From Babesia bigemina (Eukaryota): 64,000 nt of DNA. Below are positions 5,601 to 62,050 of the stretch, one piece after another. The stretch spans positions 2,108,001-2,172,000 of the forward strand of contig NC_027218.1 in assembly GCF_000981445.1 (NCBI RefSeq). The letters run 5' to 3'. The translations under genes were made by a program, and so were the position numbers. Numbering within the stretch: position 1 is the stretch's first letter; the number at the start of each line of letters is the position of its first letter. The notes beneath the pieces were generated by a model. The model made no database searches. It saw only the letters and a program-made list of their open reading frames with translations, and was not told the DNA's origin.

Positions 5601-8138
5601 AGGCCCGGGAGCAACAGGGCTGGTTGGAGTTGGACGGTTGGGTGGAATTTGAAATTGCGGAATTTTACGATTTGGATGTTTAGTATTACGGTCATTTAGT
5701 ATGTTTTTTACGACTGTTTTCTCATAAGCATTTGCGATTTTATTTTCTGCGTTTTCAGAGAGAGGTTTGCGATAAGACTTATTCGGCTTAGGACGACAGA
5801 ATGATGTGCCAGACATATCTACGGATTTAATTTGATTGGCAGGACACGTCGGCGAATGTTGTTTAACCAAAGCGGGATCCTGACCAACTCCCTTCCCATT
5901 ACTCCCACCAACCCCTCCAGCTCCACCGCCACCGCCACCCGAACCAGTGGTTGCCGTAGTAGCAGCGGTGGTAGAACTTGGCGATGTACCTTGGCCATTT
6001 TGTTGAGTGGTGCTAAAAGTGGACCCCTGGTCACCCGTGCCCTGACCACCGACTGGAGCAGGGACACTGGATGACGGGGGGACAGGACTGGAATCACTTG
6101 AAGGCTGAGTGGTTACATTCTGTGCAGGGGCACCAGGCTGTTGAGCTGTAGGACTACCGTCATTTGGACCTTTACTCGTACCACCTTGCTGACCAGGCAC
6201 AGAAGCAGACACCTTACCACTACCGGTACTAGGGACACCATGTGACGGAGTCCCTGAGCTTGAAATACTTGGATTCTGAGATTGCCCAGTTAATGAAGGG
6301 GCACCACTCTGCGATCCCTTACTCTGCCCACCCGGTTGACCAGGCGCAGAGGAAGGCCCCGGACCACCATTGTTACCAGAGACACTAGATGACGAAGAAC
6401 GTGGAGAGAGAGCACTTGACGATTTAGGAGGTAACGGCTGTGAAGCGCCAGCAGTATGCGAACCTTGAGCAGCACCGCCATTTGCACTCCCACCCCCGCT
6501 ACCCGGCTTACTAGAGGAGACAGGGCCTGCAGGAGTGCTGGGATCAGCTCGAGGGGGAGGGTTTGCCGGCGGTTGAGGTGGAGTATGTTGAGATGTAACA
6601 GTATTTTGAGACGAAGAAGATGTTGTAGAGCCGGTACTAGTAGGCCCTTGTGTGCCTTTACCACCTTGAGGCCCTGCAGGGCCTGGCGCTCCTTTAACAC
6701 CGGTACTCGGAGATGGAGAAGATGTGGTAGCTGATGAACTTGAAGGATTTCTTCCACTTTGAGCTTTGGTTTGATTTTGATTTCTCTCAGCTTTCTTGCC
6801 CTGGTTCTGTGCTCCCTCCACTTTCTTGGCCTGGTTCTGTGCTCCCTCAGATTTCTGGCTCTGATTTGGAGTTACTTTGGATTGACTTACAACAGGCTTC
6901 GCCGCCTCGGTTTTGACAGCGGGCTTTGTTGACGTGGATTCTCGAGCAGATTTTCTCTCCGGCGCAACTGCCTTGGGTGCTTCGGAGGAAGTGACAGGTG
7001 GGGGGGCAAGATTGGGACACGATGCTGTATACTCACCTTCTAAGATTGCTTTAAGCTGTATCAGCTTACTTTCAAGCTCGTTGAATCTCTGTAAATTAAG
7101 AGTCCACTGCTGCGGCAAGCCCCTTTTCAAAACGTTCGGTTTACTGCCGTCGAAAATGAACCCACGGGGATAAAGTTTATCGTTGGCAAATGATTGCAGT
7201 TCAGTCTTCTGCGAATTGATTGACTGAGGTATCATTTCACTCAATTCGCCTGCGGCTTTTGGCAAGTTTGCTCTAAACCATGTAGCGGATGTCTTGGCAA
7301 AATTGACTGCGTGTGTAGGCGTAATCCCTCTACCGGTAACAGAAAATCCTGCTCCCGTCAGCGTATCGATGTGTTCCTTCAGAAGTTGACAATGGTTTTT
7401 TAAATCTTGCCAACATATCTTTTTTCCAAGGCCCTTCTCTAAAGCCGCTTTAAAAGCCCCACCGTCAGCATCCTTCTCTCCGGCAACCAACACGCAAAAT
7501 ACATTAACCAAAGATACAGTGTTTCCAGTGTTGACGGCATGCCACGGTTTATTCGAAATTGTCAATGTAACATTTCTAAAATGATCATGCACAGGATTTT
7601 TTGTTCTAGTGTCAACTTCCTTATTCAAAATCTTTCTCAGTTCGTTTGCTACTGCACGTCCCTCTATATTATTAACCTCATGGACACTGAACCCACCACG
7701 AAGAATGTTATTTCCGGTAGTTAGAAAATTGCAAAGCTCGCCTCTCTGCAGCGACTGTGAAGCCCAATCTCCACCGCCAACATTGCTAAACGCATCATCC
7801 ACGTGATACTGCAAGTAATATAATGCAGCAAGAAACTTGGGGATGCATCCTAAAAGCGCGTCAAGAATTTGAGTTTTATCCCTTGTGTTAACATAATTAC
7901 TCGGTGTAGTAATTTTATTAGATAACAATTTAGTACGTAGAGCGGACACATTATTTAGGAAATTAACATATTGAACGTGTAACCCCCGCTTAAAACTTGG
8001 CATTTTTGGAAAAGAAGGCGTCAACCTTTGTACTAACTCAGTTACCACATTACTTTTTTGACCTTTTGGGCCGTTCAACCAGTCCAAGAACTCAAAGCAC
8101 TCCTTAAGAGTGTCCAACTTGACTCCATGCGTATCCAT
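2679..8138 (-). CDS. Babesia VESA-related variant-antigen-like family protein (copy 1), about 1819 aa: N-terminal globular domain, Ser/Pro/Gly-rich linker, coiled coil, Cys-rich conserved C-terminal domain, C-terminal TM
   Basis: Single long ORF with ATG at 8138 (MDTHGVKLDTLKECFEFLDWL). The C-terminus PFIYTIVALWSLAFLVFANTMLYRLDVLRIRSHL resembles the VESA1-type TM and tail. Paralogous to 11767-21767 and 62831-64000. Confidence 0.85.
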   Translation of the reverse strand: MDTHGVKLDTLKECFEFLDWLNGPKGQKSNVVTELVQRLTPSFPKMPSFKRGLHVQYVNFLNNVSALRTKLLSNKITTPSNYVNTRDKTQILDALLGCIPKFLAALYYLQYHVDDAFSNVGGGDWASQSLQRGELCNFLTTGNNILRGGFSVHEVNNIEGRAVANELRKILNKEVDTRTKNPVHDHFRNVTLTISNKPWHAVNTGNTVSLVNVFCVLVAGEKDADGGAFKAALEKGLGKKICWQDLKNHCQLLKEHIDTLTGAGFSVTGRGITPTHAVNFAKTSATWFRANLPKAAGELSEMIPQSINSQKTELQSFANDKLYPRGFIFDGSKPNVLKRGLPQQWTLNLQRFNELESKLIQLKAILEGEYTASCPNLAPPPVTSSEAPKAVAPERKSARESTSTKPAVKTEAAKPVVSQSKVTPNQSQKSEGAQNQAKKVEGAQNQGKKAERNQNQTKAQSGRNPSSSSATTSSPSPSTGVKGAPGPAGPQGGKGTQGPTSTGSTTSSSSQNTVTSQHTPPQPPANPPPRADPSTPAGPVSSSKPGSGGGSANGGAAQGSHTAGASQPLPPKSSSALSPRSSSSSVSGNNGGPGPSSAPGQPGGQSKGSQSGAPSLTGQSQNPSISSSGTPSHGVPSTGSGKVSASVPGQQGGTSKGPNDGSPTAQQPGAPAQNVTTQPSSDSSPVPPSSSVPAPVGGQGTGDQGSTFSTTQQNGQGTSPSSTTAATTATTGSGGGGGGAGGVGGSNGKGVGQDPALVKQHSPTCPANQIKSVDMSGTSFCRPKPNKSYRKPLSENAENKIANAYEKTVVKNILNDRNTKHPNRKIPQFQIPPNRPTPTSPVAPGPSRPIHPTPSVQPSRLAPGPYPLPPGSRDGQGRRYYEPAEGRGRHDDGSMAVNQPSEFDGQPIPDTASKELQEKIKKKVEGIKFLKSLESTAQQEEVEQLRRDEETVNTEQEKKAKAEWEKRKQQGKGVKKHDEDLDRIQKTLQRSNRANEARLRQEEEQRKFIEAAPQLDGSQPTDDAYGEHWPWWYPGLLYREITGKPIDDDLPERLQDQRDRLFHEKIQDDLGRHIDERKALQTLERKEKDQIKKHNKDAEEELRRGRIQHMQLNPPITTVLPALPDPRELPDSLKHPDITFKVVDSTDRQSFAQKSKDAAQRIKDHYEKQRQRVADEKKVYKEELEQKEKNATQAHVESIKRAGEIVQSEHLKKMFHGGDFDIALAPSLNVDDFEDNAHEAYRIYGPSPKKTSDEIFEYNPKWNNVINYGLIVDPNPNMCNNPWNYAHDSATSSTLPLPPDSDHLPPPTNVKAMLFWLVGLNAYGLIAKMERHIEGLLMVFNGDTFYPKYALQVNGDLSSLSASHIADTLTEACLYSAHVLNGIMRMQSGDALSDIDFKLEYDKLHYSPDPACLLCQLRDYVYACCHQLAFLKAQCKRGKSLGGWQDSKYGSDIKTSSPLQAFLTDGWDSDFETHPFDPCNLCLKSRVRMGFRDKDLPKTSQQGSVISAILTPSCGGSDPLLTLASYLNCLTRRTPRTTGELVSYFHHFGNELHEYALKALSSLGTAITKSHADCPDWDCLGASDLQAVSGLRGSEALNMISNNNHDNEHPKTLSTLVGCGSDFANCRPHCPPITYRAYALYSQSFVHTYLSWTVYLPDRLRESLEKLHYELKKHDFAKCTSLHLCSTALPLLYTHGFTPPEGKSQSTVKCYDVMSKLKEIVDGKPIASLMTAMDDFLYGIREPFIYTIVALWSLAFLVFANTMLYRLDVLRIRSHLIRTKASHHIDVKALLTKGRKMLSLYKDVDYFDEDPIGYLGVTH
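6772..6872 (-). repeat. About 3 degenerate 30-nt coding repeats (NQSQKSEGAQ NQAKKVEGAQ NQGKKAERNQ)
   Basis: Shares GAGGGAGCACAGAACCAGG with the 12985-13521 array. Confidence 0.85.
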
Positions 8139-11304: not shown

Positions 11305-11605
11305 GAGGAGACGCCTTAGCGGCGCCACAATGCTGGGTCAGAGGGGCTGTACACTATTCCACTCGGAGAACTCATGGGGAATCCCGTCTGCCAGCATTGC
11401 TCCAGCCTCTTATGCCAGCCAATATATGGTATTACCGTATTTATGGGCTCGTAGCCTTGCTTCCCCTTAGGTAGGTGGGATGCTTACAAGATAATTGTCC
11501 TGTCTAATGGGTTTTGAGAGGGCGAGATGAGTCTTTCACTGTTTTAATATTATGAGTAATGTAATCACTGGGCAAATCACTTTGTAGCATTTTCCACCTA
11601 GCGCA
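11305..11605 (+). promoter_or_regulatory. Conserved upstream/5'-UTR block of copy 2, including a candidate 5'-UTR intron donor AG|GTAGGT at 11471
   Basis: Collinear inverted homology to 8279-8590. Confidence 0.6.
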
Positions 11606-12984
11606 CATGTCTGGCCGTCTAGTATTTTTAGACGGGGCCACCTTAGAGGTATGATCAGACGACTGCTTCCTAGTTCACATAGTCGTGGACACCAGCCGTA
11701 AAGATTTGTAAGCGCATGTTGGCGAATGTGTATTAGCATTTTGTGTTTCTGCTATTTGTATCCAAAATGGTGTCGGCTAAGAAATTCTATCTCACTAGCC
11801 TTAGGGAGTGTTTCATATTTTTCGATTGGTTAAACACCCAAAAGAAGAATATACACGCCCAAATTGCCCAGGATCTGTATAAACGTATAAATAAGTATAA
11901 TAAGGCGGTCGAATCAAACAGTATTAAAGCATCGCTGTCCACTTTCCTCTCGAACGTAGATAAGTTTTATAGAATATTGGTAAGTGACGGCATCCCTGAA
12001 AAATTGCTTCGAACAACAAACTCAATTAATAGCGACGCAACAACGGAGGAAATTGTGGACGCTCTTCTCGAGTGTATTCCTAAATTCCTCGCCGCGATGT
12101 ACTATCTTTGGTACGATGTGAATGCCACTTTCGAGGAGCTTGGCGGCGGTGGTTGGAAGTTAAATTATCCAGGGGCCTTATATGGTAGTTACTATAGTTC
12201 AAGCGGAGGCGATCTCGACAATTACCTCCATGCGAAGAACGGCAGCAACTACGGTGGCATGATACCCGGAGGATTCAACCCCACCGAAGTGAGGTATGGC
12301 TATTGGTACAGTGGCTACCGTCAGGGATATCTGATGGAAGATGATATTAGAATAATTCTGGACAAAAAAAATGACCAGTGTTTTCGTAACGTATTTCTTA
12401 CTACGGTTGGCGTCGCAGGCAAGCAGAAGGAAAACGTTGCAAATGTTCTTGCATTGGTGGGAACGTTTTGCGACATTGTGGAAAGGGACAAAGGTGCCGT
12501 GAAGAGCGCTTTGGAAAAGCAACTTAAGGAAATGAATGGAAAATGCCTGGATTGGTCTGCCTTACAATCTCATTGCAAAGAGCTAAAGAAATCCCAAATA
12601 CACAGATTGTTCGCCAGTCAACGCTTTGCGCATACTGGCCAGTCACTAGAATCTAGTGATTCTACAAAGGAAGAAATTGCGAAAGATGCGGCAAAGTGGT
12701 TGAGAGTGAATTTGTTGGAAGTTAAGAGCCATTTGAATAAAATTGATACAAAAGACAAGGTCATCGACAATCCCGATAAGAAGCACCTTGGCGCATATTT
12801 CACCAACAATCTTTTCCCATACGGTTTCTTTTTCGATGACAACCATTTCAGAAGGATGATTAAAGATAGGAAGACCTTGATGCAAAATTGGCGTAGTGTA
12901 ATCAGTAAGTTTGTTGCTAATGGTGAAGGTTTAGAAAAGTTAAAAACACTTTTGGAAGGTTACAATTGTCCAGAAGATACTTAT

Positions 12985-13521
12985 AAGAAATCCGAGGGAG
13001 CACAGAACCAGGGCAAGAAATCCGAGGGAGCACAGAACCAGGGCAAGAAATCCGAGGGAGCACAGAACCAGGGCAAGAAAGCGGAGGGAGCACAGAACCA
13101 GGGCAAGAAGGCTGAGGGAGCACAGAACCAGGGCAAGAAGGCTGAGGGAGCACAGAACCAGGGCAAGAAATCCGAGGGAGCACAGAACCAGGGCAAGAAA
13201 TCCGAGGGAGCACAGAACCAGGGCAAGAAAGCGGAGGGAGCACAGAACCAGGGCAAGAAGGCTGAGGGAGCACAGAACCAGGGCAAGAAGGCTGAGGGAG
13301 CACAGAACCAGGGCAAGAAAGCGGAGGGAGCACAGAACCAGGGCAAGAAAGCGGAGGGAGCACAGAACCAGGGCAAGAAGGCTGAGGGAGCACAGAACCA
13401 GGGCAAGAAGGCTGAGGGAGCACAGAACCAGGGCAAGAAGGCTGAGGGAGCACAGAACCAGGGCAAGAAATCCGAGGGAGCACAGAACCAGGGCAAGAAA
13501 GCGGAGGGCACTCCAAATCAG
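12985..13521 (+). repeat. Coding tandem repeat, 17 complete 30-nt units plus 1 partial, encoding KK[S/A]EGAQNQG and ending KKAEGTPNQ
   Basis: Unit AAG-AA[A/G]-[TCC/GCG/GCT]-GAGGGAGCACAGAACCAGGGC, counted directly from the sequence. Confidence 0.98.
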
Positions 13522-14893
13522 CAAACCGCTCAAAATAGTCGAACGACTTCAAGTTCACTGGGTCCGCATTCAGATTCATCGACAGTGTCCGGTGCTGATG
13601 TAGCTAAAGGTCAACCAGGGGCTAAAGGTGATCAAGGCGCGAAAGGGCCTCCTGATACAGGGACTACAAAATCTTCTACACCTCAACGTGCTGGTAAGCC
13701 GCAACATCCTCCGCCCCAACCGCCGCCAGCGCCTCCCCCCAGTACTCCCGCTGCCCCTAGCCCCGCTGGTCCGACAAGTGACGGGGGTGGAAGGCCAAAT
13801 GACAGTGGTGCTCGAAGTCAGAAGCCTGTTGCCTCTAAACCCCCTGCTTCTCCTCCGTCTACAAGTGGTACAAGTCCAGCCCCTCCGTCACTTGCTGTCC
13901 CTGGTTCCAGTGGTGGCACGGGGTCTACTTCTGTGCCTGTTAAACCAGGTGTTAAGGGGCAGGGTTCAATGGTCAGTGTTTCTCCAGCGCAACAACCTGG
14001 TGCGTCTTCACAGAATGTTATCACTCAGTCTCCAACTGCTCAATCTCCTGGCCCTCGGTCATCTGGTGTCTCTGCTCCCGATGGTGGTCAGAACTTGGGT
14101 AGCTCGGCGGGTTCTGCTGTCCCTGGTCCAACAGGTGATCAAGGTAAACCGCAGAATTCCACTGCCGCTATTACTACGCCATCCACTGGCTCGGGCGCTG
14201 GTTCGGGCGGCGGTGGAGGGGATGGCGGTAGTAATGGGAAGGGGACTGGTAATTCTCAAACTCAGATAAATTGCCCTCAGGGCCAGTCACTTATGAGTCT
14301 ATGGCCCAATGGCTCCAAGTTCTGCGTCCCTACAAATGACTTTAATGACCATGAAAAAACCTATACCGTATGGGACAATGTCAAAAAATCGCATGATAAG
14401 GACATTCAAAAGACTGTAGAGAGAAATCGACAGAAACAAAATTCACAATTGCGATATCCTCCCAGACGCCAAACAAGGCCTGACAATCTTAATGCCGTAC
14501 CACCAACTCATTCTAACAGTCTCCACCCTGCTCAACACCAGCCCATTGATCCACTAAGAAGGGATGACGGGCGGGGAGGCACAGGCGCTCCGCATATTCC
14601 GTCTATTGACGTTTCCGTTGGTGGAGAAGCAATTCAGCCGACGAAATCAAATCATTTCGCTGCGAAGGACTTCACTAAATTGCCGGGTCTCCGTGGCCAG
14701 GCTATGCGTGATTTGGATTATGAGCAGGATCAAGTGTACAACGAGTTGTTATTTGACGAGATAGCAGCACAAACGAAATTGCAGAAAAATTTGGAAAAAG
14801 AAAAATTGGAGAGATCGGAGGAAGAGAATATAAGGGCCCATAAATATCAAGTAGAAGGCATCGAACGGCAATTAGAAGAGCACAAAAAACAAG

Positions 14894-14901
14894 TAGCAGA
14901 T
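14894..14901 (+). repeat. Left target-site duplication TAGCAGAT
   Basis: Identical to 19219-19226; the flanking bases differ on both sides. Confidence 0.9.
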
Positions 14902-17900
14902 GTTAAATTAAGTTATCTCATCTTATAGTGTGCTATGTGGCTACGTGCCTAGGGCCGGTTTTCGTGTTTGCGGGGCTAACGCCTCACGCTGAAACCGGTT
15001 GCGGGATCCACGCCGGTCCATTGCCGGACGTCACTGGTGCCATCCATGCGGGCATCCATCCAGTTTGGGCTTGAGGGTCTTCTACGGAATCGTAGTCTTC
15101 TTTCGGCTTCATATCCCTCATCACTATTTTATGTGTTTCTTGGATCACTACCCTTTGTATGTGGGCTTCCATGCGATCCGATATGCCCAGGTCCCGTCTG
15201 TACTTGCTGTGCTCCTTTGTCACTATTCCCTCCCACGTCATAACGTAGGGGATAACCCTGATCTTGGTGTGCTGGTTAAACTGTCGCGCCTTGAGGTCCT
15301 CAATAAGGTCTTCATACTTCTGCTTCTTGAACTTCTCCGTATCCACTAGGTTGTCTTGATTGGTGATTCCTATCTCCACGATGGTTATGGTGTTCCTCCG
15401 CCGATCCGCCAGGATGATGTCTGGCCTGTTGTATTCCTTAGTCTTCTGAGTCTTGACCGTCTTGTCGTACGCGATCCATCCGTATTTTCCATGTACTTCA
15501 CTCTCGATCTTGTGGGCGTCTATCTTCTCCTTGGGTAGTCCTATTTGCCTCCCGAGTACTGAGTGGACCCGTTTTGCTACCTCGTTGTGCCTCTTCGTAT
15601 ATTCTAGGTGTAGTAGTTTCTGGCACTTCGTCGCGAGGTGATCCACGTTCTTGCCGTTGTTGCATCTTGTGCATTTCTTGGACGAAGACATCCATTGCAG
15701 ATTCCTATCCTGGACTTCCGCTACGTTCGCTTCTTCTTCCGGAGTGAGTATTCCACACGTCAGGTACAAGGACGACGCCTCAATGTCCAGCTTGGGGTCC
15801 TCACGCTTGGCATACAGAACCTTATGAGTTGATTTTACGTGCATTCTGTTGTACAGCCATTTGTTTTGGGCCACCCTGAGGTCCCTGAGGCTCTTGTCCG
15901 TAGTGTCCTCCATTCCGAATTCCATTCCATATCTTCCTTCCAGGTGCATCTTGATGTGAGATATGTGCGCGTATGTGTCGCGAAAATGCTGCATGATCGC
16001 AGCTCTCCTGGTTGACGTCACCTCGTCTGCTGAAAGCGTCAACCACAGTCGTAGCAGCATGGCTTCCGCTCTAAATACCATGCTGTGGAGCCCTCTCCCC
16101 ATCTCTTTCCGGGGGAGGTAGAGCCTCTGTGTGTTCGCCCACTTCTTGTGTCCGTGCTTCGCGTTAATTATTCTCCGTACTGCCAGGTCGATCTTGTCGA
16201 AATGCGTGATGTCCATGGGGATCACGCCGATGTAGTAGTTGATGACGCTGAGGGCGTACTGGTTGATGGCCATCGAGAGGTTTTTCCCCGACAGCTTTGA
16301 CGCAGCCAGTAGCTCCGTTCTCCTGCATATCTCCTGTAGTATTATGTCGAACATTCCGTCGCTTGTCAGTGAGTTTGAAGTCTCTGTGACTCCCAAGTAC
16401 TTGTACGTTTCCGGGCCTTCCATCTGCTTGGCGATGCTGGCGCACGCCTCCGTGTTGGTTGCCGACTTGTCGCGGTTGATCCTGAGTCCTATGTCGTTGA
16501 AGAACTTCTCCACTTCTCGGCCCATTCCTCTCATCGTACTTTCCTCGTGGGCGAAGAACTTGAGGTCGTCAATATAGAGAAAGTGGTTTGTGGCGAATAT
16601 CCTGCCGCCGGTCACGCTTAACTCCACCTTGGGGAAGATGCGAGTCAGGTGCCTGCTCAGCGGGTCCAAGCACAGCACGAAGAGAAGGGGCGATAGGCTG
16701 TCGCCTTGGAGAATGCCCCTCTCCACTTTCTTGTGCATGATTGTGTTCTTGTTCCACCGTATCTCTATATTCCACCTCTTGATCGTCTGCTTGATGAAGT
16801 TTGATAACCACCCTGGTAGGTTAAGGTTGTCGATAACCCTTGCCAGGTACGCGTGGTCGATTGAGTCGTACGCCTTCATGACGTCGACCCACGTTGCAAG
16901 TAACTTCCCCTTGTGCTTCTCGTTGAGCGCGATGTTCGCTAACGCGTGCTCCTTTGCACCCTGTACGTTGCTCCTCGTGCCCATCTGGTTCTCGGACCGT
17001 AGTCCCCTGCCATCGACTTCTCGCTTAAGCGTCTCCGTTGCACAGCGGGTAGTTAGCTTGTATAGGTTGGACATGCATGTGATAGGCCTGTACTGTGCGG
17101 CGGACTTTGGTTTCTTGTTCTTCGGTAGTAGGTACGTGATCCCACAGTAGAACCAGTCGTCCTGCACTTTGCCTTGCTGGCATGCCTCCTCTACTAGCCT
17201 GTAAATGACTCTGTGAAGGGACGTGAGCCATTTAATGTAGTAGTTGTAGATCCCATCCGCACCGGGCGACTTCCAGTCTCGCAATTTCTTGACGATCGTG
17301 ACGAATTCCTCGTATGTGGGAAAGCCTGCCTTGTTCTCTGCCGGTGGTCTTTCGACCAGATATCCTTCACCGTTGTGCGGTGCGTTTGGCTTCACCCACA
17401 TTTGCGCCCAGTACTCTATCATCATCCCCTCGTTTATCGCCGACTCGTCCGCGTCCTGCTTGTTCTCCAGTGTCCTGTAGAAGTGTCCCGTGTAGAGCTC
17501 GAACATGCGGTTGTCGTTGTACAACTCCTTCTTGAACTTGGCGTTCTTGAGTTTGTCCTGCTCCTTTTGGAGCTCCTCTTGAGTCCTGCTGATCACGTAT
17601 GACAGTTCCTGCGGCTTGTCCGCGATCATGTTGTACTTGTCCATTTGGCGATAAACGCGTTTCCTATCCTCCTTCTCCAGGGGGACCTTCTGCTTGTATT
17701 TCAGAAGTAATGCTCCTATCTCCTCCAGCTCCTTGATCCTCCTCTCAGCTGCCTCCTTCTTTCCCGAGGACGACGATGGTTTTGCGCTGTACTTGTCGTA
17801 GCAGTCCTGTGCCGTTTGATACAAGATGGCTAGCATCCCCATGTCAGTGACTGGGTTGTGCTTCACGTAGTTGTGGACCACTAGATCCAGCGACCTTATC

Positions 17901-19218
17901 GCCGTGAAGTCGAGGGAGTCCATGGTGTGTCTTTTGTTCTTTACTGTCCTAATCACACCAGGCTCCCTCAACCTCTGTGCCATGATCCGGTCGAAATCCT
18001 CCTGCAGGGCGTTGTATGAGTCGACGTCGTGCAGCGATGCTATTTCTCCAACGTCCGTCGGTTGGCTCCGCGCTGCTTTGGCGACTACCTGTCTTGCCAT
18101 CTGCTCCACCTCCTTGTGGGTCTTGTGGAATTCGAAATGCTCGTTGGCATATTCCGCGAGGACTTTCCATCCTCCTCGTGGCATCCTCTGATACTTCGTC
18201 ACTACTGCCTTGTAGACGTCCGGTACCCAATGACACCATGGTCCATCGATCTGACGCATGACACAGTGCAGGAACTGTAACTTGGCATTCAGCCTAGCGT
18301 AGTTCGGCGGCATTTGTGGCGTGTTCCCGGCCCGTTCAGCCTGCGGGGCGTGCCCTTCGGGTGCCCTCGGCAACGCAGCCGTCTCAGTGAGCGCCACCTC
18401 ACTGGCGGTGCCCGGTGCTATACTGTTGTTTGATTCTCTCACAGGCCCGACTTGCTCAGGTTCCTCTTCGTCCACGTCCATAAAGTCATCCGACGATATG
18501 GAATACACGGTCGGAGAGCGGCAGCCACCGTTTCCGACAACCTCCCCTGCCGGTGGCTGCAGGGTAGACAGTGTCTGCACACACACGGGTGCGCGTTCCG
18601 AGGAACTCGGCCCGGCGTTGCAAACCACGACAGGCGGCGTTTGAGCCGTGTTTCCTGTCTTTTTGGCCTTCCGGTTGTTACCCTTTTGGCCCTGGGGACC
18701 GCCGTTCCGCGCTTTGTTTCCAGCGCCCTTCACAGCCGGAGTGGTTCCGGGCTGGTGTCGTTTCCGGCTTGCCTGCGGGATTGGCCGGCTTTCGCCGCCA
18801 CGGCCGGCCCCCTTCGAATTTGTGGGTTTACCTTTAGGGCCCTGAACACCGCTTTGTACCGGTTTTCTGGATTCATGCCGCCTTTCGGGTTGCCGACACT
18901 CTCGGCGCCCCACGGTGGCAAGCGGAGCATCGATGTCCATCCCATCGGGGACGTCCACGTCAATAACCATGAGGTCTCCGTCCTCATCGATTTGACTGCT
19001 CAGCTGCACTTCTTGTGAGCTCTCCATTGGTACCTTGTTCGTCTATCCAGCGCGCCTGTGTGGCCGCCTTTCGCCTCGCGATGTTGCCGCTTTAATTCCG
19101 CACTTTTGGCCTTCAATACACCCCCCAGTGACATCGGAAAAATTTCCTTTCTGTGATAAACCCGAGAAAACACGTTTCTCAAAGTTTCCCCCAAAATCAC
19201 AGAAGATTCCAACTCCCC
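14902..19218 (-). mobile_element. Full-length non-LTR retrotransposon with restriction-like endonuclease (R4/Dong/EhLINE-like), 4317 bp
   Basis: Bounded by an 8-bp direct repeat. 191-nt 5' UTR, single 1347-aa ORF, 82-nt 3' UTR. Excision restores the host reading frame. Confidence 0.93.
14984..19027 (-). CDS. Retrotransposon polyprotein: low-complexity N-terminus, reverse transcriptase, CCHC zinc knuckle, PD-(D/E)xK-type RLE endonuclease
   Basis: RT motifs KSPGADGI, LLPK...YRPITCMSNLYK, DVMKAYDSIDH, RGILQGDSLSPLLF, YIDD, GLRINRDKS, YKYLG. RLYLPRKEMGRGL. CTRC-x7-H-x4-C. RHN. RPDIILAD...IVEIGI...KKQKY. Confidence 0.96.
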   Translation of the reverse strand: MESSQEVQLSSQIDEDGDLMVIDVDVPDGMDIDAPLATVGRRECRQPERRHESRKPVQSGVQGPKGKPTNSKGAGRGGESRPIPQASRKRHQPGTTPAVKGAGNKARNGGPQGQKGNNRKAKKTGNTAQTPPVVVCNAGPSSSERAPVCVQTLSTLQPPAGEVVGNGGCRSPTVYSISSDDFMDVDEEEPEQVGPVRESNNSIAPGTASEVALTETAALPRAPEGHAPQAERAGNTPQMPPNYARLNAKLQFLHCVMRQIDGPWCHWVPDVYKAVVTKYQRMPRGGWKVLAEYANEHFEFHKTHKEVEQMARQVVAKAARSQPTDVGEIASLHDVDSYNALQEDFDRIMAQRLREPGVIRTVKNKRHTMDSLDFTAIRSLDLVVHNYVKHNPVTDMGMLAILYQTAQDCYDKYSAKPSSSSGKKEAAERRIKELEEIGALLLKYKQKVPLEKEDRKRVYRQMDKYNMIADKPQELSYVISRTQEELQKEQDKLKNAKFKKELYNDNRMFELYTGHFYRTLENKQDADESAINEGMMIEYWAQMWVKPNAPHNGEGYLVERPPAENKAGFPTYEEFVTIVKKLRDWKSPGADGIYNYYIKWLTSLHRVIYRLVEEACQQGKVQDDWFYCGITYLLPKNKKPKSAAQYRPITCMSNLYKLTTRCATETLKREVDGRGLRSENQMGTRSNVQGAKEHALANIALNEKHKGKLLATWVDVMKAYDSIDHAYLARVIDNLNLPGWLSNFIKQTIKRWNIEIRWNKNTIMHKKVERGILQGDSLSPLLFVLCLDPLSRHLTRIFPKVELSVTGGRIFATNHFLYIDDLKFFAHEESTMRGMGREVEKFFNDIGLRINRDKSATNTEACASIAKQMEGPETYKYLGVTETSNSLTSDGMFDIILQEICRRTELLAASKLSGKNLSMAINQYALSVINYYIGVIPMDITHFDKIDLAVRRIINAKHGHKKWANTQRLYLPRKEMGRGLHSMVFRAEAMLLRLWLTLSADEVTSTRRAAIMQHFRDTYAHISHIKMHLEGRYGMEFGMEDTTDKSLRDLRVAQNKWLYNRMHVKSTHKVLYAKREDPKLDIEASSLYLTCGILTPEEEANVAEVQDRNLQWMSSSKKCTRCNNGKNVDHLATKCQKLLHLEYTKRHNEVAKRVHSVLGRQIGLPKEKIDAHKIESEVHGKYGWIAYDKTVKTQKTKEYNRPDIILADRRRNTITIVEIGITNQDNLVDTEKFKKQKYEDLIEDLKARQFNQHTKIRVIPYVMTWEGIVTKEHSKYRRDLGISDRMEAHIQRVVIQETHKIVMRDMKPKEDYDSVEDPQAQTGWMPAWMAPVTSGNGPAWIPQPVSA

Positions 19219-19226
19219 TAGCAGAT
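19219..19226 (+). repeat. Right target-site duplication TAGCAGAT
   Basis: Identical to 14894-14901. Confidence 0.9.
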
Positions 19227-21767
19227 CATAAAGATTTTGTGGAAGCTTTGCAAAATACCGATTGGGTGGGAAAAGCAGTCGATCACTTTTCAGGGCCATT
19301 TGTATCTACATATATACCTTTTGATGGCAATCCGGTTCCGGATCAAATCAAAGACGCCCATGATAAACTTATGGAACGTGAATTTGAGCAGAAAACGCAA
19401 GATGCTATTTACAATCAAACGGTAAAGGAATTGAAACTAGCAGAGCGCCAGAAGAAAGATGCGGAACGTGAGGAACGAGATGTAAAACACATTGATGATG
19501 AGCTTAAGTATATAGATCACATAGAAAAACAGAAATACGACAACCAGGTAGCGGAAGTATCAGCGCTTGATGGGAATACAGTTGTGCTTCCAAAGACATA
19601 TGGCATACACGACTTAGACCCTTCCCTGCTATTTTCCGGTACTGCAGCTCCTAGATTATCTCACGATCCAGCGGTATATAGACGTATCTATGCGAGTGCT
19701 GCGGACCATGTTGCAAACATCGTAAAACAAAAGGTAGATGAGCAAGACATGATTCAGAATACTAAAACACGTCTTGGAATGTTTAATGGCGGTGATGTCG
19801 ATATTACATACCCACTGCCATATATGGCTCGTAACCCTGATTATTTAGAGCTTCAAATTGACACCCCTAAGCGCGCAGTCCAAGACACCTTACATGACAT
19901 GGATCTAGATGACCTTTATTCCAACGCTGACAATATCTTGAGAGATGAGTACATAACTTCCGATATGACGTATGGTAAAGACAAAGGCTTTTCAAGCGTC
20001 CCTCAGACTAATTTCGATTTGGACTTTGCACCCGGACGTATTGGAGTTGAAGGCTATGGAGATCCCGGGATGCCGCGTGACCCTTCCAGGGAGGTGTCTG
20101 AGCGCTTAGTTCCGGCATTCGCTACTCCAGACAGCTGCCAAAATCCCTGGTACGTTACCCCTTCATCCACCTCTCCCACACCTCCAACCCCCGCACCTCT
20201 CCCAGTCACCGATCATCTGCCGCCCCCCAAAACCGTACGGGAAATGCTCTACTGGTTTGTTGGATTGAATACACAAGGGTATGTTGGATTGATTACAGAC
20301 TATATCTATAGCATTTTGAAGGATGCTAACAAAAATGTCTCCAAGATCTCAGATGTTATCGAAGTCACCGGGGACCCTACCAACCTGGATGCTTCCCATG
20401 TCGCCGACAAACTGACCGAGGCATGTCTCTACGGGGCAAGCGTACTTTACAGGCTCAAATATCGTGATGATTACAAGGCTTATAATAATTTAAAATTCGA
20501 ATCGGAATATAGTAAGTTCCGTTATGCCTCCGACCCCGCCGGTCTCCTCTGCCAGCTGCGTGACTACGTCTACGCCTGCCACCACCAGTTGGCATTCCTG
20601 AAGGCGCAGTGTAAGCGGGATAAACTAAGTGGTGGGTGGAAACATTACCATTATGGCAGTGACATCAAGACATCGTCCCCCCTCCAGGCGTTCCTGACCG
20701 ACGGCTGGGACTCCACCTTCAAGACTCACCTCTTCGACCCGTGCAACCTGTGCCTTAAGAGTCGTGTCAGGATGGGATTCAGAGATAAGGATTTGCCTAA
20801 GACATCGCAACAGGGCAGTGTCATTTCCACCATCCTCACTCCCAGCTGCGGCGGTAGTGATCCCCTGCTGACATTGGCGTCCTACCTCAACTGCCTCACC
20901 AGGCGGACGCCGCGCACCACCGGGGAGCTTGTGTCGTACTTCCATCATTTCGGGAATGAGCTGCACGAGTATGCTTTGAAGGCACTTTCTTCACTAGGCA
21001 CTGCCATCACCAAGTCACATGCCGACTGCCCTGACTGGGACTGTCTTGGTGCCTCCGACCTCCAAGCTGTCAGTGGCCTCCGAGGCTCCGAGGCTCTCAA
21101 CATGATCTCCAATAACAACCACGACAACGAGCATCCCAAGACGCTGTCTACACTGGTTGGCTGCGGCAGTGACCCTGACAACTGCCCTCCGCATTGCTCG
21201 CCCATCACGTATCGGGCCTACGCCCTGTACTCCCAGAGCTTCGCGCACACCTACCTCAGCTGGACGGTGTATCTGCCGGACCTACTGTGGGAGTCACTCA
21301 AGAGACTACATTATGATCTCAAGAAGCATGTTAGCACCAAGTGTTCATCCCTTTACTTGTGTTCCACTGCCCTGCCCCTCCTCTACACTCACGGGATCAC
21401 GCCACCGGAGGGCAAATCGCAGTCGACAGTCAAGTGCTATGATGTTATGAGTAAACTGAAAGAAATTGTCGATGGCAAGCCTATCGCATCACTCATGACC
21501 GCCATGGACAATTTCCTCTACGGCATCCGGGAGCCGTTCATCTTCACTCTCGTGGCACTCTGGTCTCTCGCATTCCTCGTCTTCGCCAACACGATGCTGT
21601 ACCGCCTGGACGTGCTGCGTATACGATCACACCTTATCCGCACCAAAGCCTCCCACCACATCGATGTCAAGGCCCTGCTCACGAAAGGCCGGAAGATGCT
21701 CTCACTTTACAAAGACGTCGACTACTTCGACGAGGACCCTATTGGTTACCTTGGTGTTACGCACTAA
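19227..21767 (+). pseudogene. VESA-related family gene copy 2, 3' part (still an open frame; contains the conserved C-terminal domain and TM)
   Basis: HKDFVEALQNTDW... continues in frame from ...HKKQVAD at 14901. The C-terminal ~400 aa is near-identical to copy 1. Confidence 0.88.
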
Positions 21768-22627
21768 ATGTAGCATGTATGTTGTCACTAGTCACCGTGA
21801 GATGATATCCGCTGATCATCTAACGATATTTGTTGGGGCAGCATGTACGGTAAGGTGGTGGCCCGTGGACTTACGGAACTGGGACGTTGACCTTAACGTC
21901 GTATAATAGACACAGCCATGTAGCCACGTGACACCCAATGTCAACTTAATTTTGCAAATGCGCATTATCAATGCTATATTAATGTCTACCATATCATTTA
22001 AGCTGACTAAAATGCAATATTGAATTTTTTATAGACAGTGGCCATTCGATGCGACTACGGATAGATACACAGGCTACACCGCACTTTCATGGAAAATTGT
22101 TCCTATTCAGCTCACAGAAGATATACAATCCCATTTTGAGGTATCGCCAACAACATTTTAAAGTAGCAACAGATGTAATAATTGCGACTGAGTGATGGAT
22201 TTTTGCCATATAAAATTAACGTGATGTCCTAAATGGAGGTCGGCGCACCAGACACCACATCCTAGAAAGACGGTTCATAAGTAACCGTTGTTCGCATCGT
22301 ACCCATACGTTGGACCCTTGCTGTTACTTTGATTGCGCATTTCAAACTGCATCTGTGTTACTGGATCAATGTGCGCCTGCTCATTAAGAGGGCCCTTGCG
22401 CGTCAACTGAGTCTCTTCATTTTCTTTTGGCTACACAACCTTAGTATTTACGACCTACAACTAACTCTATACGCGTGTTTTAGGTGATGTGCCTCATATT
22501 CGGTGAGCTCATCACAACTGCACGGAATGCCTACAGCCAAACTCAGGTTTCACTGCATGGTCACCTACCTGTTGCCGGATTGTGCATCTCGGGTTTCATG
22601 GGAAGGACAGAAGAGGAACCTCCCATT

Positions 22628-23761
22628 TCATACCATTCTGATTACATATGTCCTCGGCTTTGCAATCATAGTGCACATACCGTGGTCTCCGTGTTGGTAG
22701 TATTCGACATCTGCATTGACTTCGATATCGTCTTGATCGTAGACGCATTCACTCACAGACGACCCGTCCATAGATATACGTTCAGTGGCTGATTCCTCTT
22801 CGATGACAGATGTCTCATGCGCGGCGCTACTCTGGGGAAGCGCCGCCTGTCGGTTGGCCACTGAACGTTGCCTGTTTCGCATTCGACTTTCATCTATGAG
22901 GTAGCTAATAAGCTCGAGGGTGTTGAATTTGTTGTACGACTGAAAAAGACGCTCAAATGAATCCAGCTTACCCGCGTAGTAGCCCAGATTCGGAGGTATC
23001 GTCATGCCTTCTCCAGCCGTATCTGGCCCTCGGCCATGGCTGGGCAGTGTCTTTGAGTAATGCGTCGATTTACTTGCGGACGGTCTGCTCTTTTTTCTAA
23101 CAGTGGAATGTCGAGGCTCCACATCACTGTCATCGGCGTCGCTGTTATAATTTTCTGTGTATAGATCTTGCCGCTGCCGCCTGATGCGTTTGCTTGGAAC
23201 ACTTTGCACGTCCCGCGGTCCAGTAGACTCATTCTTTGCTGAACGCAGTCTAGACCGGCGATCCAGGTCGAGCAGCCGCTCCTCCGTTAGCTCCGTTATG
23301 ACCATTCCATCTTCAGTTTTTATTTGGCGTCCCAGGTCAATGACCCTGCGCAGCAGCCGGAAGGCGAGATCGAAAGTTGCGATAAGGACATCTTTACTAT
23401 CGTAGTTGAACACGCAACTCACCACTTCCCTGTTGCGTCCGCGGTACTGCACCCTCCATGTGCCACGGGTGTAGTATATGCCGCGTACGCCGCTAAGTGG
23501 TTTTGCGCCTACTTTAATTTTTTTATCGATGTCTTTTCTAACATTGACAGTTTCTTCAGTTGTCTCCAACTGTCCCAAGCGTTCGAGATCCTGGAAATAG
23601 TGATTATAAATTTTTCTGCATTTTTCGTAAGTGTAGGGGTTGATGGACGCGCGGTAGGGTAGGTCGTCGTCCGTCACATCCTTCCAGGATACCATTTTTG
23701 TCACGATTTGGCCGACATCGCCATTGGTACTGTCGGGATTATCCGTCGGAACGTGCTCCAT
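22628..23761 (-). CDS. Hypothetical protein with a candidate divergent AP2 (ApiAP2) DNA-binding domain; 3' end may be spliced
   Basis: 377-aa ORF. SGVRGIYYTRGTWRVQYRGRNREVVSCVFNY...FDLAFRLLRRV resembles the AP2 three-strand plus helix pattern. Confidence 0.55.
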   Translation of the reverse strand: MEHVPTDNPDSTNGDVGQIVTKMVSWKDVTDDDLPYRASINPYTYEKCRKIYNHYFQDLERLGQLETTEETVNVRKDIDKKIKVGAKPLSGVRGIYYTRGTWRVQYRGRNREVVSCVFNYDSKDVLIATFDLAFRLLRRVIDLGRQIKTEDGMVITELTEERLLDLDRRSRLRSAKNESTGPRDVQSVPSKRIRRQRQDLYTENYNSDADDSDVEPRHSTVRKKSRPSASKSTHYSKTLPSHGRGPDTAGEGMTIPPNLGYYAGKLDSFERLFQSYNKFNTLELISYLIDESRMRNRQRSVANRQAALPQSSAAHETSVIEEESATERISMDGSSVSECVYDQDDIEVNADVEYYQHGDHGMCTMIAKPRTYVIRMV

Positions 23762-24537
23762 TGGTTGGCTGAACGCCTGCCATCAATCGCTAGGTGACAT
23801 GTGAGCTAGGAAGGCACACCGTTGATCTAAAGTGAAATGTGCAATGGCGCAACTGGTGTTTTTTTGGCACTCATCGTTGCTGCCAAGGGTACTTTGATCG
23901 GCTGTTTGCCGCGAGTACTGCTGCGAATCCTGTGTAAGAGGCCCTGGAAGCTAAACCGAGCGAGTTACGCCCTTGAGTCCGCCTCCAAGCGATCATCGCC
24001 AGCTCATCTGTGCACATAGATATTACCATACAGCTACATAAACGGTAGAAGACTGTAAAATTTATCTCCCGATGCGCATTGCGCGTACCTACTGTGGTCA
24101 CCTACTGCGCGCCCAGTCAGATGTGTACTAAAATCGTTGAAAAAGCTAACAACTAAGGGCAACCGCACAACGGATATAACGTAAATAGTCCGCTTATAAT
24201 CGCCTTTAGTTGTTAGTTTTACGACGGCGACAAGCGTCTGTCTGCCAATCGAGTTCACAGACGACACCCTGCCGCTGGATCCACCATATTACTATTGTTT
24301 ATATTAAACGGTTTACCCTTACACATCGTACAATTTCGATCGAATTTCGCTACACATCGGTTACGCCATGTCTTCCTACAAGCACTTCAGCCAGATCCAC
24401 CCAGCTCGTATGATCTGGAATGTATCAACAGATTGTCTACCGCACTTCAAGCCACTGCCTGGTACAATCGTTGCTCGGCGTAAGGGTTACTTAATATTTA
24501 GCGGTATAAGTAGGTGAGAATTTACCCCCGCTTGGTA

Positions 24538-29875: not shown

Positions 29876-30271
29876 TTTGATACTCTCCGCCCGGCAAAAA
29901 CGCCACCCTGTAACTGTAGCATCATAATATATTACTTTTAAACTGTGCGCGCGAATAGACGTTCGCGGGGTGTGTAGGCCGCGGGATGTGTAAGGCCACG
30001 AGGCGCCGCTCCTGAGTGTGCCCCAAGTGTTGCGCGCGCTGGCCGTGCATCCCGTTCCGCGGCACAGTTAACGTTCCTCAGCGTGTTCTCTGAGGCTCTG
30101 GTGGCGCACATTCCCCGCGTCTGCTAGTTGACGCGATGTCTATGTGCGTACGGCTCTACGCATTATAATGTTCGCGCTGCACACACCGCTGTAGACTGGT
30201 GCCCCTTCTGCCGTTTTGCACCGCTTCACTTCGGATACCGATCGGCGCTTTGTGACTGTGTCGCATGAGCC

Positions 30272-33200: not shown

Positions 33201-33799
33201 ACTACAAGTCCGCGCTGTTCCGGGAAATATACGCGAAGCTGAGCGGCAACGCACGCCAGTTGAAGCTCGCCGACGACGAGGCGCTACTTCTGCAGAGCGC
33301 CCAGGAGCTCTACCATCGCATATACGACGTGTTCGAGCACCTGTCGCTTGCAGCCATCGTGGACGAGCGGGTGCTGTGCGTGCACGGCGCCCTGTCGAAG
33401 GCGTTCCGCTCGGTGGAGCAGCTTGCGCGGGTGCGCAAGCCCGTCATAGTGGAACAGACGTCGGTGAAGGGCGACAACCGGTCCCGCGGCGCTTACGCCA
33501 ACGTGCACGTGCGGAACGCATGCTTCGGCACGCTTTCGGATACCGTGGCCGACGCCTCCGGCGAGCAGTTCCACGCCGACTTCACCGAGAGGGAGTTGGC
33601 CTACTGCATGAGGCGTGGCGGCGTCGAGATGCTGATCACCGCGGGCCCGCCGACGGAGCGCGGTTACAGCTACGCGTACGGCGACCGCGTGCTCCAGCTG
33701 GGCGGTTACACCCCGGGCGGTATCTACTCCGCGGCACTGCTCAGGGAACAGCGCAACACGCAATACGTCATCACCCACAGGTCGATCAAGCTGCCATGA
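30272..33799 (+). CDS. EF-hand-containing PPP-family pseudophosphatase (EFPP/PPP8-like)
   Basis: EF-hand-like segments (FDSMDRRRQLMITLNDF, FRAYDVKRKGYLDHDAL). C-terminal PPP fold with degenerate catalytic motifs (MHGPLNG, FLGDLIG, LLRGRRE, CVHGAL). Confidence 0.75.
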   Translation: MAPPDVTAMAPVGRADSDEFSGELVFSNRTLASAPENASVPAEEDIMRLPSLGEGYKSSLLEPSTAASGGSRASFMRWHSQGHLLMEMKRDDERMRREAKALFESSSCGDSMCEGEFGSTKPSESPDSDRHDSLARLSTVFFTSDSQLQPVNNGVVSFLLKTFRQLDESKLISAPFELTSEIEAFRSRIFEVMNKEFNSLSLSEALLTVAFNHYAGVSHPGYMTLDEYMSMMSLYKGVFANETMTRFVFDSMDRRRQLMITLNDFIAGMMACSPQAAHKVTSATGRLRLQHIFRAYDVKRKGYLDHDALRVLLTHIQQLARIANSSKVERMPSMNGSFIDIRRSDSLSESDPQSATSNLNEVLDLIMSTYENGFGYDAFYSSVESGLIKDSHLLLRSDKDFAELVGQHLIHALGRVVIPSEVAAKAEVTPLPVETPPPQEEEPKPAPVNEDVSGRSVDRTRKPSIWSSANSPRSAEATSLAPSPYASTYARDGRVHSLEPFYGLSGVRESPRSLSSRSHYGLSGLGTDRKPLFQPAPLKGGSLDATIRPFNEDAFFRKLAPYTKAGNFRSYDADNEPRQLGGKASALGLGLGMGIPQGASAFQGSAAVSEPELPAGNLLSTKALENALSATRGQGVARDVVPFLPKGENAWNRAKSVECHTEWMTFRKRADTDGILGTSRSAGYARISGLGMAGFGFSDLCDPVKDKMGISESMLTSNLNMSTTPPQDTTTETLALNDASPSMIGATLRRSNSRSQETTECKMDAPAPERHNSVRFEDSVPASSATAASDSDLEGILSRRLSDLCRRYRARFIGFNSCMLADSTIALKVYGEIYTRTFKCQDYWGVFERFHWCSYNELLELCDVVCGVVRQEGSVLHMEGTVQMHGPLNGSVLTLLESFNCLGWPLHGNTADRSVARAVDASQYAKGETTKLVFLGDLIGEVEGFSLETLLVLFSLKVLYPYHVFLLRGRREARRRDYKSALFREIYAKLSGNARQLKLADDEALLLQSAQELYHRIYDVFEHLSLAAIVDERVLCVHGALSKAFRSVEQLARVRKPVIVEQTSVKGDNRSRGAYANVHVRNACFGTLSDTVADASGEQFHADFTERELAYCMRRGGVEMLITAGPPTERGYSYAYGDRVLQLGGYTPGGIYSAALLREQRNTQYVITHRSIKLP

Positions 33800-61780: not shown

Positions 61781-62050
61781 CCTCAACCTGCAAACATATC
61801 GATCACCTAAGCAGCACTCACCAACTGCAACACGTACCACTGCCGCTCCCAGTCCCCTCAACCTGCGAACATCAACCACCTAAGCAGCACTCACCAACTG
61901 CAACACGTACCACTGCCGCTCCCAGTCCCCTCAACCTGCGAACATATCAATTACCTAAGCAAACACTCACCAACATAACACGTACCACTGCCGCTCCCAC
62001 TCCCCTCAACCTGCAAACATATAAATCACTTAAGCAACGCACTCACCAAC
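61781..62050 (-). repeat. Tandem repeat of 73-76-nt units, each a short GT-AG intron-like sequence plus a 40-41-nt exon-like spacer
   Basis: Minus-strand GTGAGTG...GCAG blocks at 62011-62046, 61936-61970, 61863-61894 and 61788-61821, separated by near-identical spacers. Confidence 0.85.

What the first reader, a model, noticed from the sequence alone, without database searches (positions are those of the whole stretch)
14894..19226. Intact, full-length R4-like non-LTR retrotransposon with a perfect TSD in a piroplasm genome
Seen: a 4317-bp element (14902-19218, minus strand) flanked by the direct repeat TAGCAGAT. It has one uninterrupted 1347-aa ORF with the RT motifs (YIDD), a CCHC knuckle, RHN and an RPD...E...KxxKY endonuclease, plus both UTRs. 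Established: this architecture defines RLE-type non-LTR elements; a single ORF with no N-terminal zinc fingers and the RLYLPR..GRGL motif fit the R4/Dong/EhLINE clade. Piroplasm and most apicomplexan genomes are generally described as lacking transposable elements; the exceptions I know are LTR elements (Eimeria, avian Plasmodium, gregarines). Inference: a recent, possibly still active LINE-like family, perhaps acquired horizontally from a vector, host or co-infecting eukaryote. A precise insertion inside a parasite-specific gene argues against contamination.
Basis: partly seen in the sequence, partly recalled or inferred. Interest (0 to 1): 0.93.

Follow-up and report, generated by a model that had tools for sequence, protein, structure and literature searches.

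The report
Microsporidian-type retrotransposon active in Babesia
An intact 4.3-kb LINE-type jumping gene interrupts a surface-antigen-type gene of the cattle parasite Babesia and is absent from that spot in another sample; it likely jumped recently, and its family was likely acquired long ago from microsporidian parasites, so it would be a candidate source of reverse transcription for reshaping the antigen genes.

Summary
A 4,317-bp element (14902-19218, minus strand) has one 1,347-aa ORF (RT, CCHC knuckle, restriction-like endonuclease) and an 8-bp target-site duplication. It interrupts a ves1a-type variant-antigen gene.

It looks recently active: four full-length Babesia bigemina proteins at seven places differ from it by 0-3 residues; one independent run holds the empty site; another holds a copy elsewhere with an 11-bp duplication; published RNA-seq has blood-stage reads on family members.

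What I did not find in print: the piroplasm elements nest inside a mostly microsporidian lineage (39-45% identity, against 26-28% to insect relatives), and a position outside it is rejected (AU p about 1e-6). The transfer is likely old, since the sampled Babesia elements form one clade. One versus two transfers stays unresolved (p 0.3-0.37). R4/Dong membership is plausible but untested. Verdict: real, likely active, known kind, striking origin.

The parts
14894..14901 (.). Target-site duplication, copy at the element's 3' end
   Evidence: empty-site joint with 8 shared letters in run X5
19219..19226 (.). Target-site duplication, copy at the element's 5' end
14902..19218 (-). Full-length non-LTR retrotransposon, 4,317 bp, GC 0.535; only copy in the window
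   Evidence: a contig of run X1 covers 14902-19217 with 12 differences and another flank
19028..19218 (-). 5' UTR, 191 nt, starts with a G run; a long hairpin is predicted but is not more stable than shuffles
   Evidence: z -0.79; no Rfam match at gathering level
14984..19027 (-). Single ORF, 1,347 aa
18065..18307 (-). Conserved N-terminal helical domain (residues about 241-321), possibly nucleic-acid binding; no zinc finger upstream of the RT
   Evidence: AlphaFold models; fold searches inconclusive; no C2H2 pattern in residues 1-560
16385..17110 (-). Reverse transcriptase core (residues 640-881); YIDD at 16565-16576
   Evidence: D820 27 of 29, D821 28 of 29 in alignment A1
15623..15673 (-). 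CCHC zinc knuckle C1119-C1122-H1130-C1135
   Evidence: each residue 29 of 29 in A1
15176..15592 (-). Restriction-like endonuclease: RHN, RPD, E1218, KxxKY
   Evidence: R1146, H1147, P1202, D1203, K1234 29 of 29; E1218 28 of 29; whole model matches R2 structures best
14902..14983 (-). 3' UTR, 82 nt, AT-rich end, no poly(A) tail; a copy in run X1 shows a short tandem repeat of this end
11767..14893 (+). N-terminal half of the interrupted ves1a-type host gene, with a 30-bp repeat array at 12985-13508
   Evidence: 32% identical to the N-terminal part of the single-ORF paralog at 2682-8135; family description in PMC4066756; no Pfam VESA match
19227..21767 (+). C-terminal half of the interrupted host gene
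   Evidence: 80% identical over 547 aa to the C-terminal part of the same paralog

Best explanation
This is an intact single-ORF RLE-type LINE that sits antisense inside a ves1a-type antigen gene of Babesia; it likely inserted recently by target-primed reverse transcription, and its family likely entered an ancestor of Babesia by horizontal transfer from a microsporidian lineage. Shown: the anatomy, the duplication, the empty site in another run, near-identical copies with other flanks, and the nesting in the tree. Inferred from R2 biology: the ORF protein binds its own RNA at the 3' UTR, the RLE nicks chromosomal DNA, the RT copies from the nick, and a staggered second nick leaves an 8-11-bp duplication. 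The targets seen differ, so it is likely not sequence-specific; copies likely persist in ves loci because these redundant genes tolerate disruption. Inferred: direction and age of the transfer (before the split of the sampled Babesia species), with microsporidia in a shared arthropod vector as the likely meeting place.
For: Activity: four 1,347-aa B. bigemina proteins at 7 contig places, 0, 1, 3 and 3 residues from the window protein. Empty site in X5. Other flanks at the element's exact ends in X1, with one 11-mer on both sides, and in X2 (record 15); loose ends inside the element in X4 and X5 as expected of 5'-truncated copies. Catalytic residues conserved. Foldseek ranks 1-7 are R2 structures, TM-query 0.51-0.59, ahead of L1. 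Published RNA-seq: full-length member CDR71823.1 has 23/35/31 reads in blood and 0/0/0 in tick; CDR71814.1 477/476/502 against 8/20/5 (PMC9806345 supplement). Origin: identity over the RT-RLE alignment 39-45% to six named microsporidian rows of the inner clade, 26-28% to three insect rows. In the 49-row tree the piroplasm rows lie inside nested branches of 28, 30, 33 and 37 rows (100/100, 100/99, 97/94, 97/88), with Dictyocoela, Amphiamblys and Enteropsectra outside and Vairimorpha, Nucleospora, Pancytospora and Hamiltosporidium inside. Piroplasms outside this clade: delta lnL 56, p-AU 5e-7 to 1e-6.
Against: The empty site is one contig with 18 differences over 325 bases and could be a close paralog rather than the allele. 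No listed contig bridges the filled junctions. Most rows near the piroplasms are unnamed environmental proteins whose hosts are unknown. The clade also holds animal-hosted members: a Dermatophagoides-labelled group, one member of which (L007) lies in a long contig from the same metagenome assembly as L011, whose flank carries a split TFIIS_M-SPOC gene, plus Octopus- and Polistes-labelled rows. The AU tests used site frequencies from an unconstrained guide tree, and the constrained searches were short. RNA-seq strand is unknown, so read-through from ves genes is possible. No activity assay exists.
Confidence: 0.72

Rival explanations
1. Same element and activity, but the donor was an animal (tick or other mite) or an unsampled protist; microsporidia are fellow recipients in a transfer hub.
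For: Mite-labelled and animal-embedded members exist in the clade; Babesia lives inside tick cells (established); three unnamed rows (P0045, P0061, P0205) branch at the same unresolved node as T. equi.
Against: The mite group is more distant (32-36%) than the inner microsporidian rows (39-45%) and itself pairs with an Enteropsectra element (100/99). No tick-named row in the listed hits (120 of 141; 120 of 221; 120 of 806), though only about a quarter of rows carry names.
Confidence: 0.17
2. The family was inherited vertically from early eukaryotes or alveolates and lost in most lineages; no transfer.
For: RLE elements are ancient (PMC4640811 passages); long Babesia and T. equi stems (0.85, 0.95); sampling of free-living alveolates is thin.
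Against: Piroplasm elements are closer to microsporidian ones than insect elements are, and lie four supported nodes deep in that clade; the outside position is rejected. No other alveolate is named in the listed hits.
Confidence: 0.05
3. The element no longer jumps; near-identical copies were spread passively by duplication and gene conversion of ves loci.
For: ves1 sequences move between loci routinely (PMC4066756 passages); B. ovata, B. caballi and B. divergens hits are mostly partial or fused models.
Against: Flanks change exactly at the element's ends and another copy has its own duplication of different length and sequence; passive copying would carry the flanks along.
Confidence: 0.05
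4. Contaminating microsporidian or host DNA was misassembled into the parasite chromosome.
For: No listed contig bridges the filled junctions; members of this clade are misfiled under bacterial genome names elsewhere.
Against: Precise duplication with an empty site; copies on contigs of 2.8 and 3.5 Mb; relatives in four Babesia species forming one clade; third-position GC 0.69, nearer to host housekeeping ORFs (0.59-0.61) than to the ves ORFs (0.46-0.56); found in several independent runs.
Confidence: 0.01

Closest known systems
LINE-like model api_194 (4,356 bp) and Tequ_3 (4,426 bp) of Rodriguez and Makalowski 2022, PMC9141347
   Same: Same genera, nearly the same length, non-LTR RT with an R2 Swiss-Prot hit; api_194 has 67, 22, 28 and 1 alignments, the 67 in the first Babesia column (B. 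bigemina by my reading of a PDF table); LINE-like cover 0.97% of the B. bigemina genome.
   Different: The paper (whole text read) gives no domain anatomy, duplication, activity, target genes or RT tree, and leaves one versus two gains open.
Microsporidian non-LTR elements (Vairimorpha, Nosema, Hamiltosporidium, Nucleospora, Pancytospora, Enteropsectra, Dictyocoela, Amphiamblys)
   Same: Closest named relatives; same ORF layout and motifs. The main LINEs of two microsporidian genomes are labelled Dong-R4, in one case evenly spread over the chromosomes (PMC3614468, PMC13174016 passages).
   Different: Host is an alveolate; the full-length relatives are mostly about 1,140-1,150 aa, the Babesia protein has about 200 extra low-complexity N-terminal residues. 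The elements labelled Dong-R4 in those papers were not matched by sequence here.
R2 retrotransposons (B. mori, T. guttata, P. megacephalum; PDB 8gh6, 9dou, 9nl2, 9nl3)
   Same: Best sequence and fold matches among solved structures: RT, knuckle, RLE in the same order.
   Different: About 15% identity; no N-terminal zinc finger; not in 28S rDNA; variable target.
R4 (Ascaris), Dong (Bombyx), EhLINE (Entamoeba)
   Same: Single ORF, C-terminal RLE, no N-terminal zinc finger, short duplications (features recalled, not from a call).
   Different: R4 and Dong carry a 5' HDV-like ribozyme (PMC3774820 passages) and have fixed targets (recalled); neither was found here. Direct phylogenetic grouping untested.

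Membership tests
RLE-type non-LTR retrotransposon (R2 group) | Single ORF with a non-LTR-type RT | tested here: met
RLE-type non-LTR retrotransposon (R2 group) | C-terminal CCHC knuckle followed by a PD-(D/E)xK endonuclease | tested here: met
   motifs conserved in 28-29 of 29 rows; R2 structures rank 1-7
RLE-type non-LTR retrotransposon (R2 group) | No LTRs, no integrase, no apurinic endonuclease | tested here: met
   longest repeat shared by the two end zones is 8 bp; Pfam finds only RVT_1
RLE-type non-LTR retrotransposon (R2 group) | Target-site duplication relative to an empty site | tested here: met
   (one contig)
RLE-type non-LTR retrotransposon (R2 group) | 5'-truncated copies | tested here: inconclusive
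   four internal loose ends towards the 5' side among those listed; deletions could give the same
RLE-type non-LTR retrotransposon (R2 group) | Target-primed reverse transcription activity | not testable with these tools
   inferred from R2
R4/Dong clade | RT groups with reference R4, Dong, EhLINE | not testable with these tools
   no reference sequence was returned by any search; indirect only, through Dong-R4 labels for microsporidian LINEs
R4/Dong clade | No N-terminal zinc finger | tested here: met
R4/Dong clade | 5' HDV-like ribozyme (shown for R4 and Dong; typical, not universal) | tested here: inconclusive
   no Rfam match; own descriptor found none but had no positive control
R4/Dong clade | Fixed target sequence (typical of R4 and Dong, not of all members) | tested here: not met
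   two duplications and a third 3' flank share no visible motif; n = 3 sites, judged by eye
R2 clade proper | N-terminal zinc finger(s) and 28S rDNA target | tested here: not met
BbigVes1a (host gene) | Conserved C-terminal domain plus Ser/Thr/Pro low-complexity region after about 1.25-1.5 kb | tested here: inconclusive
   layout fits the description in PMC4066756 and the paralog; no Pfam VESA match; no named ves1a sequence compared

The most novel reading that the evidence does not exclude
A microsporidian LINE that crossed into piroplasms is a working part of Babesia antigenic evolution: it is transcribed in blood stages, prefers ves loci, and its RT made the intron-poor ves1 retrocopies and dispersed ves1b insertions that Jackson et al. 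2014 ascribed to reverse transcription or left unexplained. Support so far: this insertion, and 3 of 6 database gene models with extra tails join the element to ves-like sequence; survivorship in redundant genes explains this equally well.
Probability: 0.2. Interest if true: 0.85.

Novelty: new member of a known kind. Interest (0 to 1): 0.57.

Why it matters
Apicomplexan genomes are nearly free of mobile elements, and the few piroplasm LINEs were known only as repeat models. An intact, polymorphic, transcribed family means B. bigemina (and likely T. equi, whose five full-length copies are 98.2-99.5% identical) carries a live insertional mutagen that hits antigen genes and can serve as a strain marker. 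A microsporidian origin would be a transfer of a non-LTR element between two distant groups of intracellular parasites. It also names a candidate enzyme for the standing hypothesis that B. bovis ves1-alpha arose from a reverse-transcribed ves1-beta transcript (PMC4066756), which becomes testable by looking for duplications and element-type 3' ends around ves genes.

Tried and rejected
No RNA holder was listed on record; X4 is only guessed to be RNA and was not used as evidence. Rfam: one sub-threshold snoRNA hit, dismissed. UTR folds no better than shuffles. HDV-like ribozyme descriptor: 0 hits, 0 of 200 shuffles, no positive control. N-terminal helical domain: no Foldseek match at E 0.001; best Z 7.1 to an unrelated redox subunit, homeodomain-type rows at Z 4-5; inconclusive. 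First metagenome scan found nothing; the second gave 80 loci, and the closest ones (L001-L005) hold little beyond the element, so hosts stay unknown. The ESM Atlas gave only RVT_1 clusters, without useful taxa. Cluster look-ups gave no named R4, Dong or EhLINE reference. The kit's own AU test did not finish and was replaced by direct IQ-TREE runs. The quick tree placed T. equi beside Pancytospora; the finished tree did not, so I dropped that placement and any claim of two independent transfers. Nine peptides for gene model BBBOND_0308820 were not used: the model is fused to a ves-like gene. PMC13465657's BovB and L1 claims for B. bigemina (passages) concern host-type elements, not this family. 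PMC7313128 and PMC4202319 (passages) do not mention Dong or piroplasms under the terms searched. Three look-ups in earlier scan findings were empty.
Full report
1. Observation. One ORF of 1,347 aa runs from 19027 to 14984 on the minus strand, with Pfam RVT_1 at residues 640-881, E 2.6e-30, and no other family. TAGCAGAT stands at 14894-14901 and 19219-19226, leaving a 191-nt 5' UTR and an 82-nt 3' UTR without poly(A). The 8-mer occurs 4 times in 64 kb and one other 8-bp repeat links the two end zones, so by itself it is weak. Two things make it a duplication. It has the same codon phase in the reading frames left and right of the element. And among four public runs laid on 11500-22000, one contig of run X5 joins 14893 to 19219, skipping 4,325 bases with 8 letters fitting either side. 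That contig has depth 4.3, 56 letters on the short side and 18 differences over 325 bases; it may be an allele or a close paralog. Neither junction flank has a second match in the window. No listed contig bridges the filled junctions.

2. Host gene. The two flanking halves, compared separately, match the N-terminal part (32%, residues 7-461, and weaker to 988) and the C-terminal part (80% over 547 aa) of an uninterrupted 1,818-aa paralog at 2682-8135. A conserved C-terminus and a Ser/Thr/Pro-rich region starting after about 1.2 kb fit the description of BbigVes1a in PMC4066756 (passages); Pfam gives no VESA match, so the family name is by resemblance. The element lies antisense to this gene. 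The other ORFs of the window are ordinary eukaryotic genes.

3. Protein. In an alignment of 29 sequences the knuckle C1119-C1122-H1130-C1135, R1146, H1147, P1202, D1203 and K1234 are present in 29 of 29, E1218 and D821 in 28 of 29. The AlphaFold model of residues 241-1347 has mean pLDDT 85.8. Foldseek ranks seven R2 structures first (TM-query 0.51-0.59), then LINE-1 ORF2p; by sequence the best three chains are also R2. There is no zinc-finger pattern in residues 1-560. A conserved helical domain at about 241-321 folds with confidence but has no clear structural match. No ribozyme was found at the 5' end (inconclusive).

4. A young multi-copy family. The 90% cluster holds 10 proteins; 8 are named B. 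bigemina and 2 are listed as encoded by the window. Four are 1,347 aa long, stand at 7 contig places, and differ from the window protein by 0, 1, 3 and 3 residues. A second cluster of 4 is 94-100% identical over the aligned parts. Run X1 holds a whole copy with 12 differences and another flank; loose ends at both element ends there begin or finish with the same 11-mer, on two different contigs, which I read as a second site with an 11-bp duplication and a short tandem repeat of the 3' end. A third 3' flank appears in X1 and another 5' flank in X2 (record 15). Loose ends inside the element (15567 and 16488 in X4, 15046 and 15357 in X5) fit 5'-truncated copies (146 loose ends not shown). The three target sequences share no motif that I could see. 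In the supplement of PMC9806345 (rows searched) the full-length member CDR71823.1 has 23/35/31 reads in blood and 0/0/0 in tick kinetes, and four partial or fused members have 140-640 blood reads with significant blood bias; a fifth (BBBOND_0313770) is not significant. Eight of the 12 terms were not in the table. Strand and multi-mapping are unknown.

5. ves genes. Of 6 database gene models that carry extra sequence after the element, 3 continue into ves-like sequence (P0128, repeat match E 7e-13; P0130, 28% over 622 aa; P0010 of B. caballi, Pfam VESA1_N E 1.5e-6), 1 continues into a gene named myb-like and 2 could not be assigned. These fusions are likely prediction artefacts that show adjacency. 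B. bigemina has some 270 ves genes (74, 80 and 116), so survival in redundant loci explains this without targeting.

6. Origin. Searches returned B. ovata (78-81% over the RT region), B. caballi (56-59%), B. divergens (56-62%), T. equi, many microsporidia and unnamed contigs. A FastTree of 332 rows (of 468 proteins held, those covering at least 330 of 450 RT-region residues) splits into a 140-row group, whose named rows are insects apart from one bacterial label, and a 192-row group, support 100, with all piroplasm and microsporidian rows. For the careful tree I chose 49 rows by hand, 811 columns, LG+C20 PMSF. Six Babesia rows form a clade (100/100) and two T. equi rows another. Both lie in a 28-row branch (100/100) inside branches of 30, 33 and 37 rows (100/99, 97/94, 97/88). 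Dictyocoela, Amphiamblys, Enteropsectra and the mite- and octopus-labelled rows are outside; Vairimorpha, Nucleospora, Pancytospora and Hamiltosporidium are inside. Forcing all piroplasms out costs 56 log units (p-AU 1e-6 and 5e-7), forcing Babesia out 61 (2e-6). Those searches were short and used site frequencies from a free guide tree; ten further iterations did not improve the constrained tree. A single piroplasm clade costs only 3.3 units (p-AU 0.37 and 0.30), so one versus two transfers is open, although the T. equi protein is closer to microsporidian rows (44-51%) than to B. bigemina (40%). Against a clean microsporidian story: most near rows are unnamed, and some members sit in animal-like DNA (L007, L011). 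I put microsporidia to piroplasm at about 0.75 given a transfer.

7. Mechanism. Shown: anatomy, duplication, empty site, copies with other flanks. Inferred from R2: the protein binds its RNA, nicks DNA with the RLE, reverse-transcribes from the nick, and a staggered second cut yields 8-11-bp duplications; slippage at initiation would give the 3' repeat seen in X1. Target choice is likely loose.

8. Prior knowledge. PMC9141347 (whole text; supplement rows) reports LINE-like elements in B. bigemina (0.97% of the genome), B. ovata, B. divergens and T. equi and none in B. bovis, T. parva, T. annulata, T. orientalis or C. felis. Its model api_194 (4,356 bp) is likely this family. PMC10463595 (passages) and the supplement of PMC5660447 (rows; main text had no hit) note clusters of RT-domain genes. 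PMC4066756 and PMC3505731 have no 'reverse transcriptase' in the main text; one supplementary file of the former could not be searched. PMC3486916 (passages) finds non-LTR elements ancestral in two microsporidia. I found no paper that describes intact, polymorphic copies, the RLE anatomy, ves insertions or a microsporidian link, in ten searches of an open-access library (listings only unless named above). Repbase and subscription journals were not searchable.

9. Verdict. A real, intact and likely active RLE LINE: a member of a known kind, in a family already listed but not characterised. The likely microsporidian origin and the link to antigen genes are the new parts. Interest 0.57; 0.85 if it proves to shape the ves repertoire (probability about 0.2).

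Noticed in passing
window 6790-6800 and 13072-13502; run X1 loose ends at 14901 and 19217: The 11-mer duplicated at the X1 insertion site also occurs 6 times in the window, all inside the 30-bp repeat arrays of the two ves-like genes (0.06 expected, but the six are one repeat unit and the test was after the fact). The wider X1 flanks do not follow the repeat. Unexplained; may be chance or a hint of target preference.
   Followed up: partly
window 2682-8135 (minus) and 11767-21767 (plus): The interrupted gene and an uninterrupted 1,818-aa paralog form a divergent pair about 3.6 kb apart, with long identical stretches in their C-terminal parts, which suggests gene conversion. A third ves-like ORF at 62834-64000 (minus) is cut by the window end.
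   Followed up: partly
proteins P0243 and P0009: B. ovata carries two lineages of the element, 78% and 51% identical to the window protein, so ancestral Babesia may have had two subfamilies.
   Followed up: partly
proteins P0044, P0136, P0141, P0143, P0144: T. equi has its own young family: five full-length proteins 98.2-99.5% identical, on several large contigs.
   Followed up: partly
L007 1-14725, L011 1-9604: Members of the same clade sit in AT-rich, animal-like DNA (split TFIIS_M and SPOC ORFs in L011); the L007 protein groups with a Dermatophagoides-labelled protein next to an Enteropsectra element, a possible further microsporidia-mite transfer.
   Followed up: partly
proteins P0042, P0200, P0202, P0229, P0230, P0255; P0055 cluster; P0361: Several members are filed under bacterial genome names (Candidatus Riesia, Turicibacter, Bacilli, Coprobacillus, Paraclostridium), likely misbinned eukaryote contigs. 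Octopus sinensis (two lineages) and Polistes labels may be real or parasite contamination.
   Followed up: no
window 794-60356: Neighbouring ORFs are ordinary eukaryotic genes: YTH, eIF3E, protein kinase, ion transport, LSM14, WD40 and an ABC transporter; several long ORFs have no Pfam match (30269-33796, 47467-51060, 51385-54072, 22631-23782).
   Followed up: no
window 61781-62050: 75-bp tandem repeat, 3.6 copies, just beyond the end of the third ves-like ORF.
   Followed up: no
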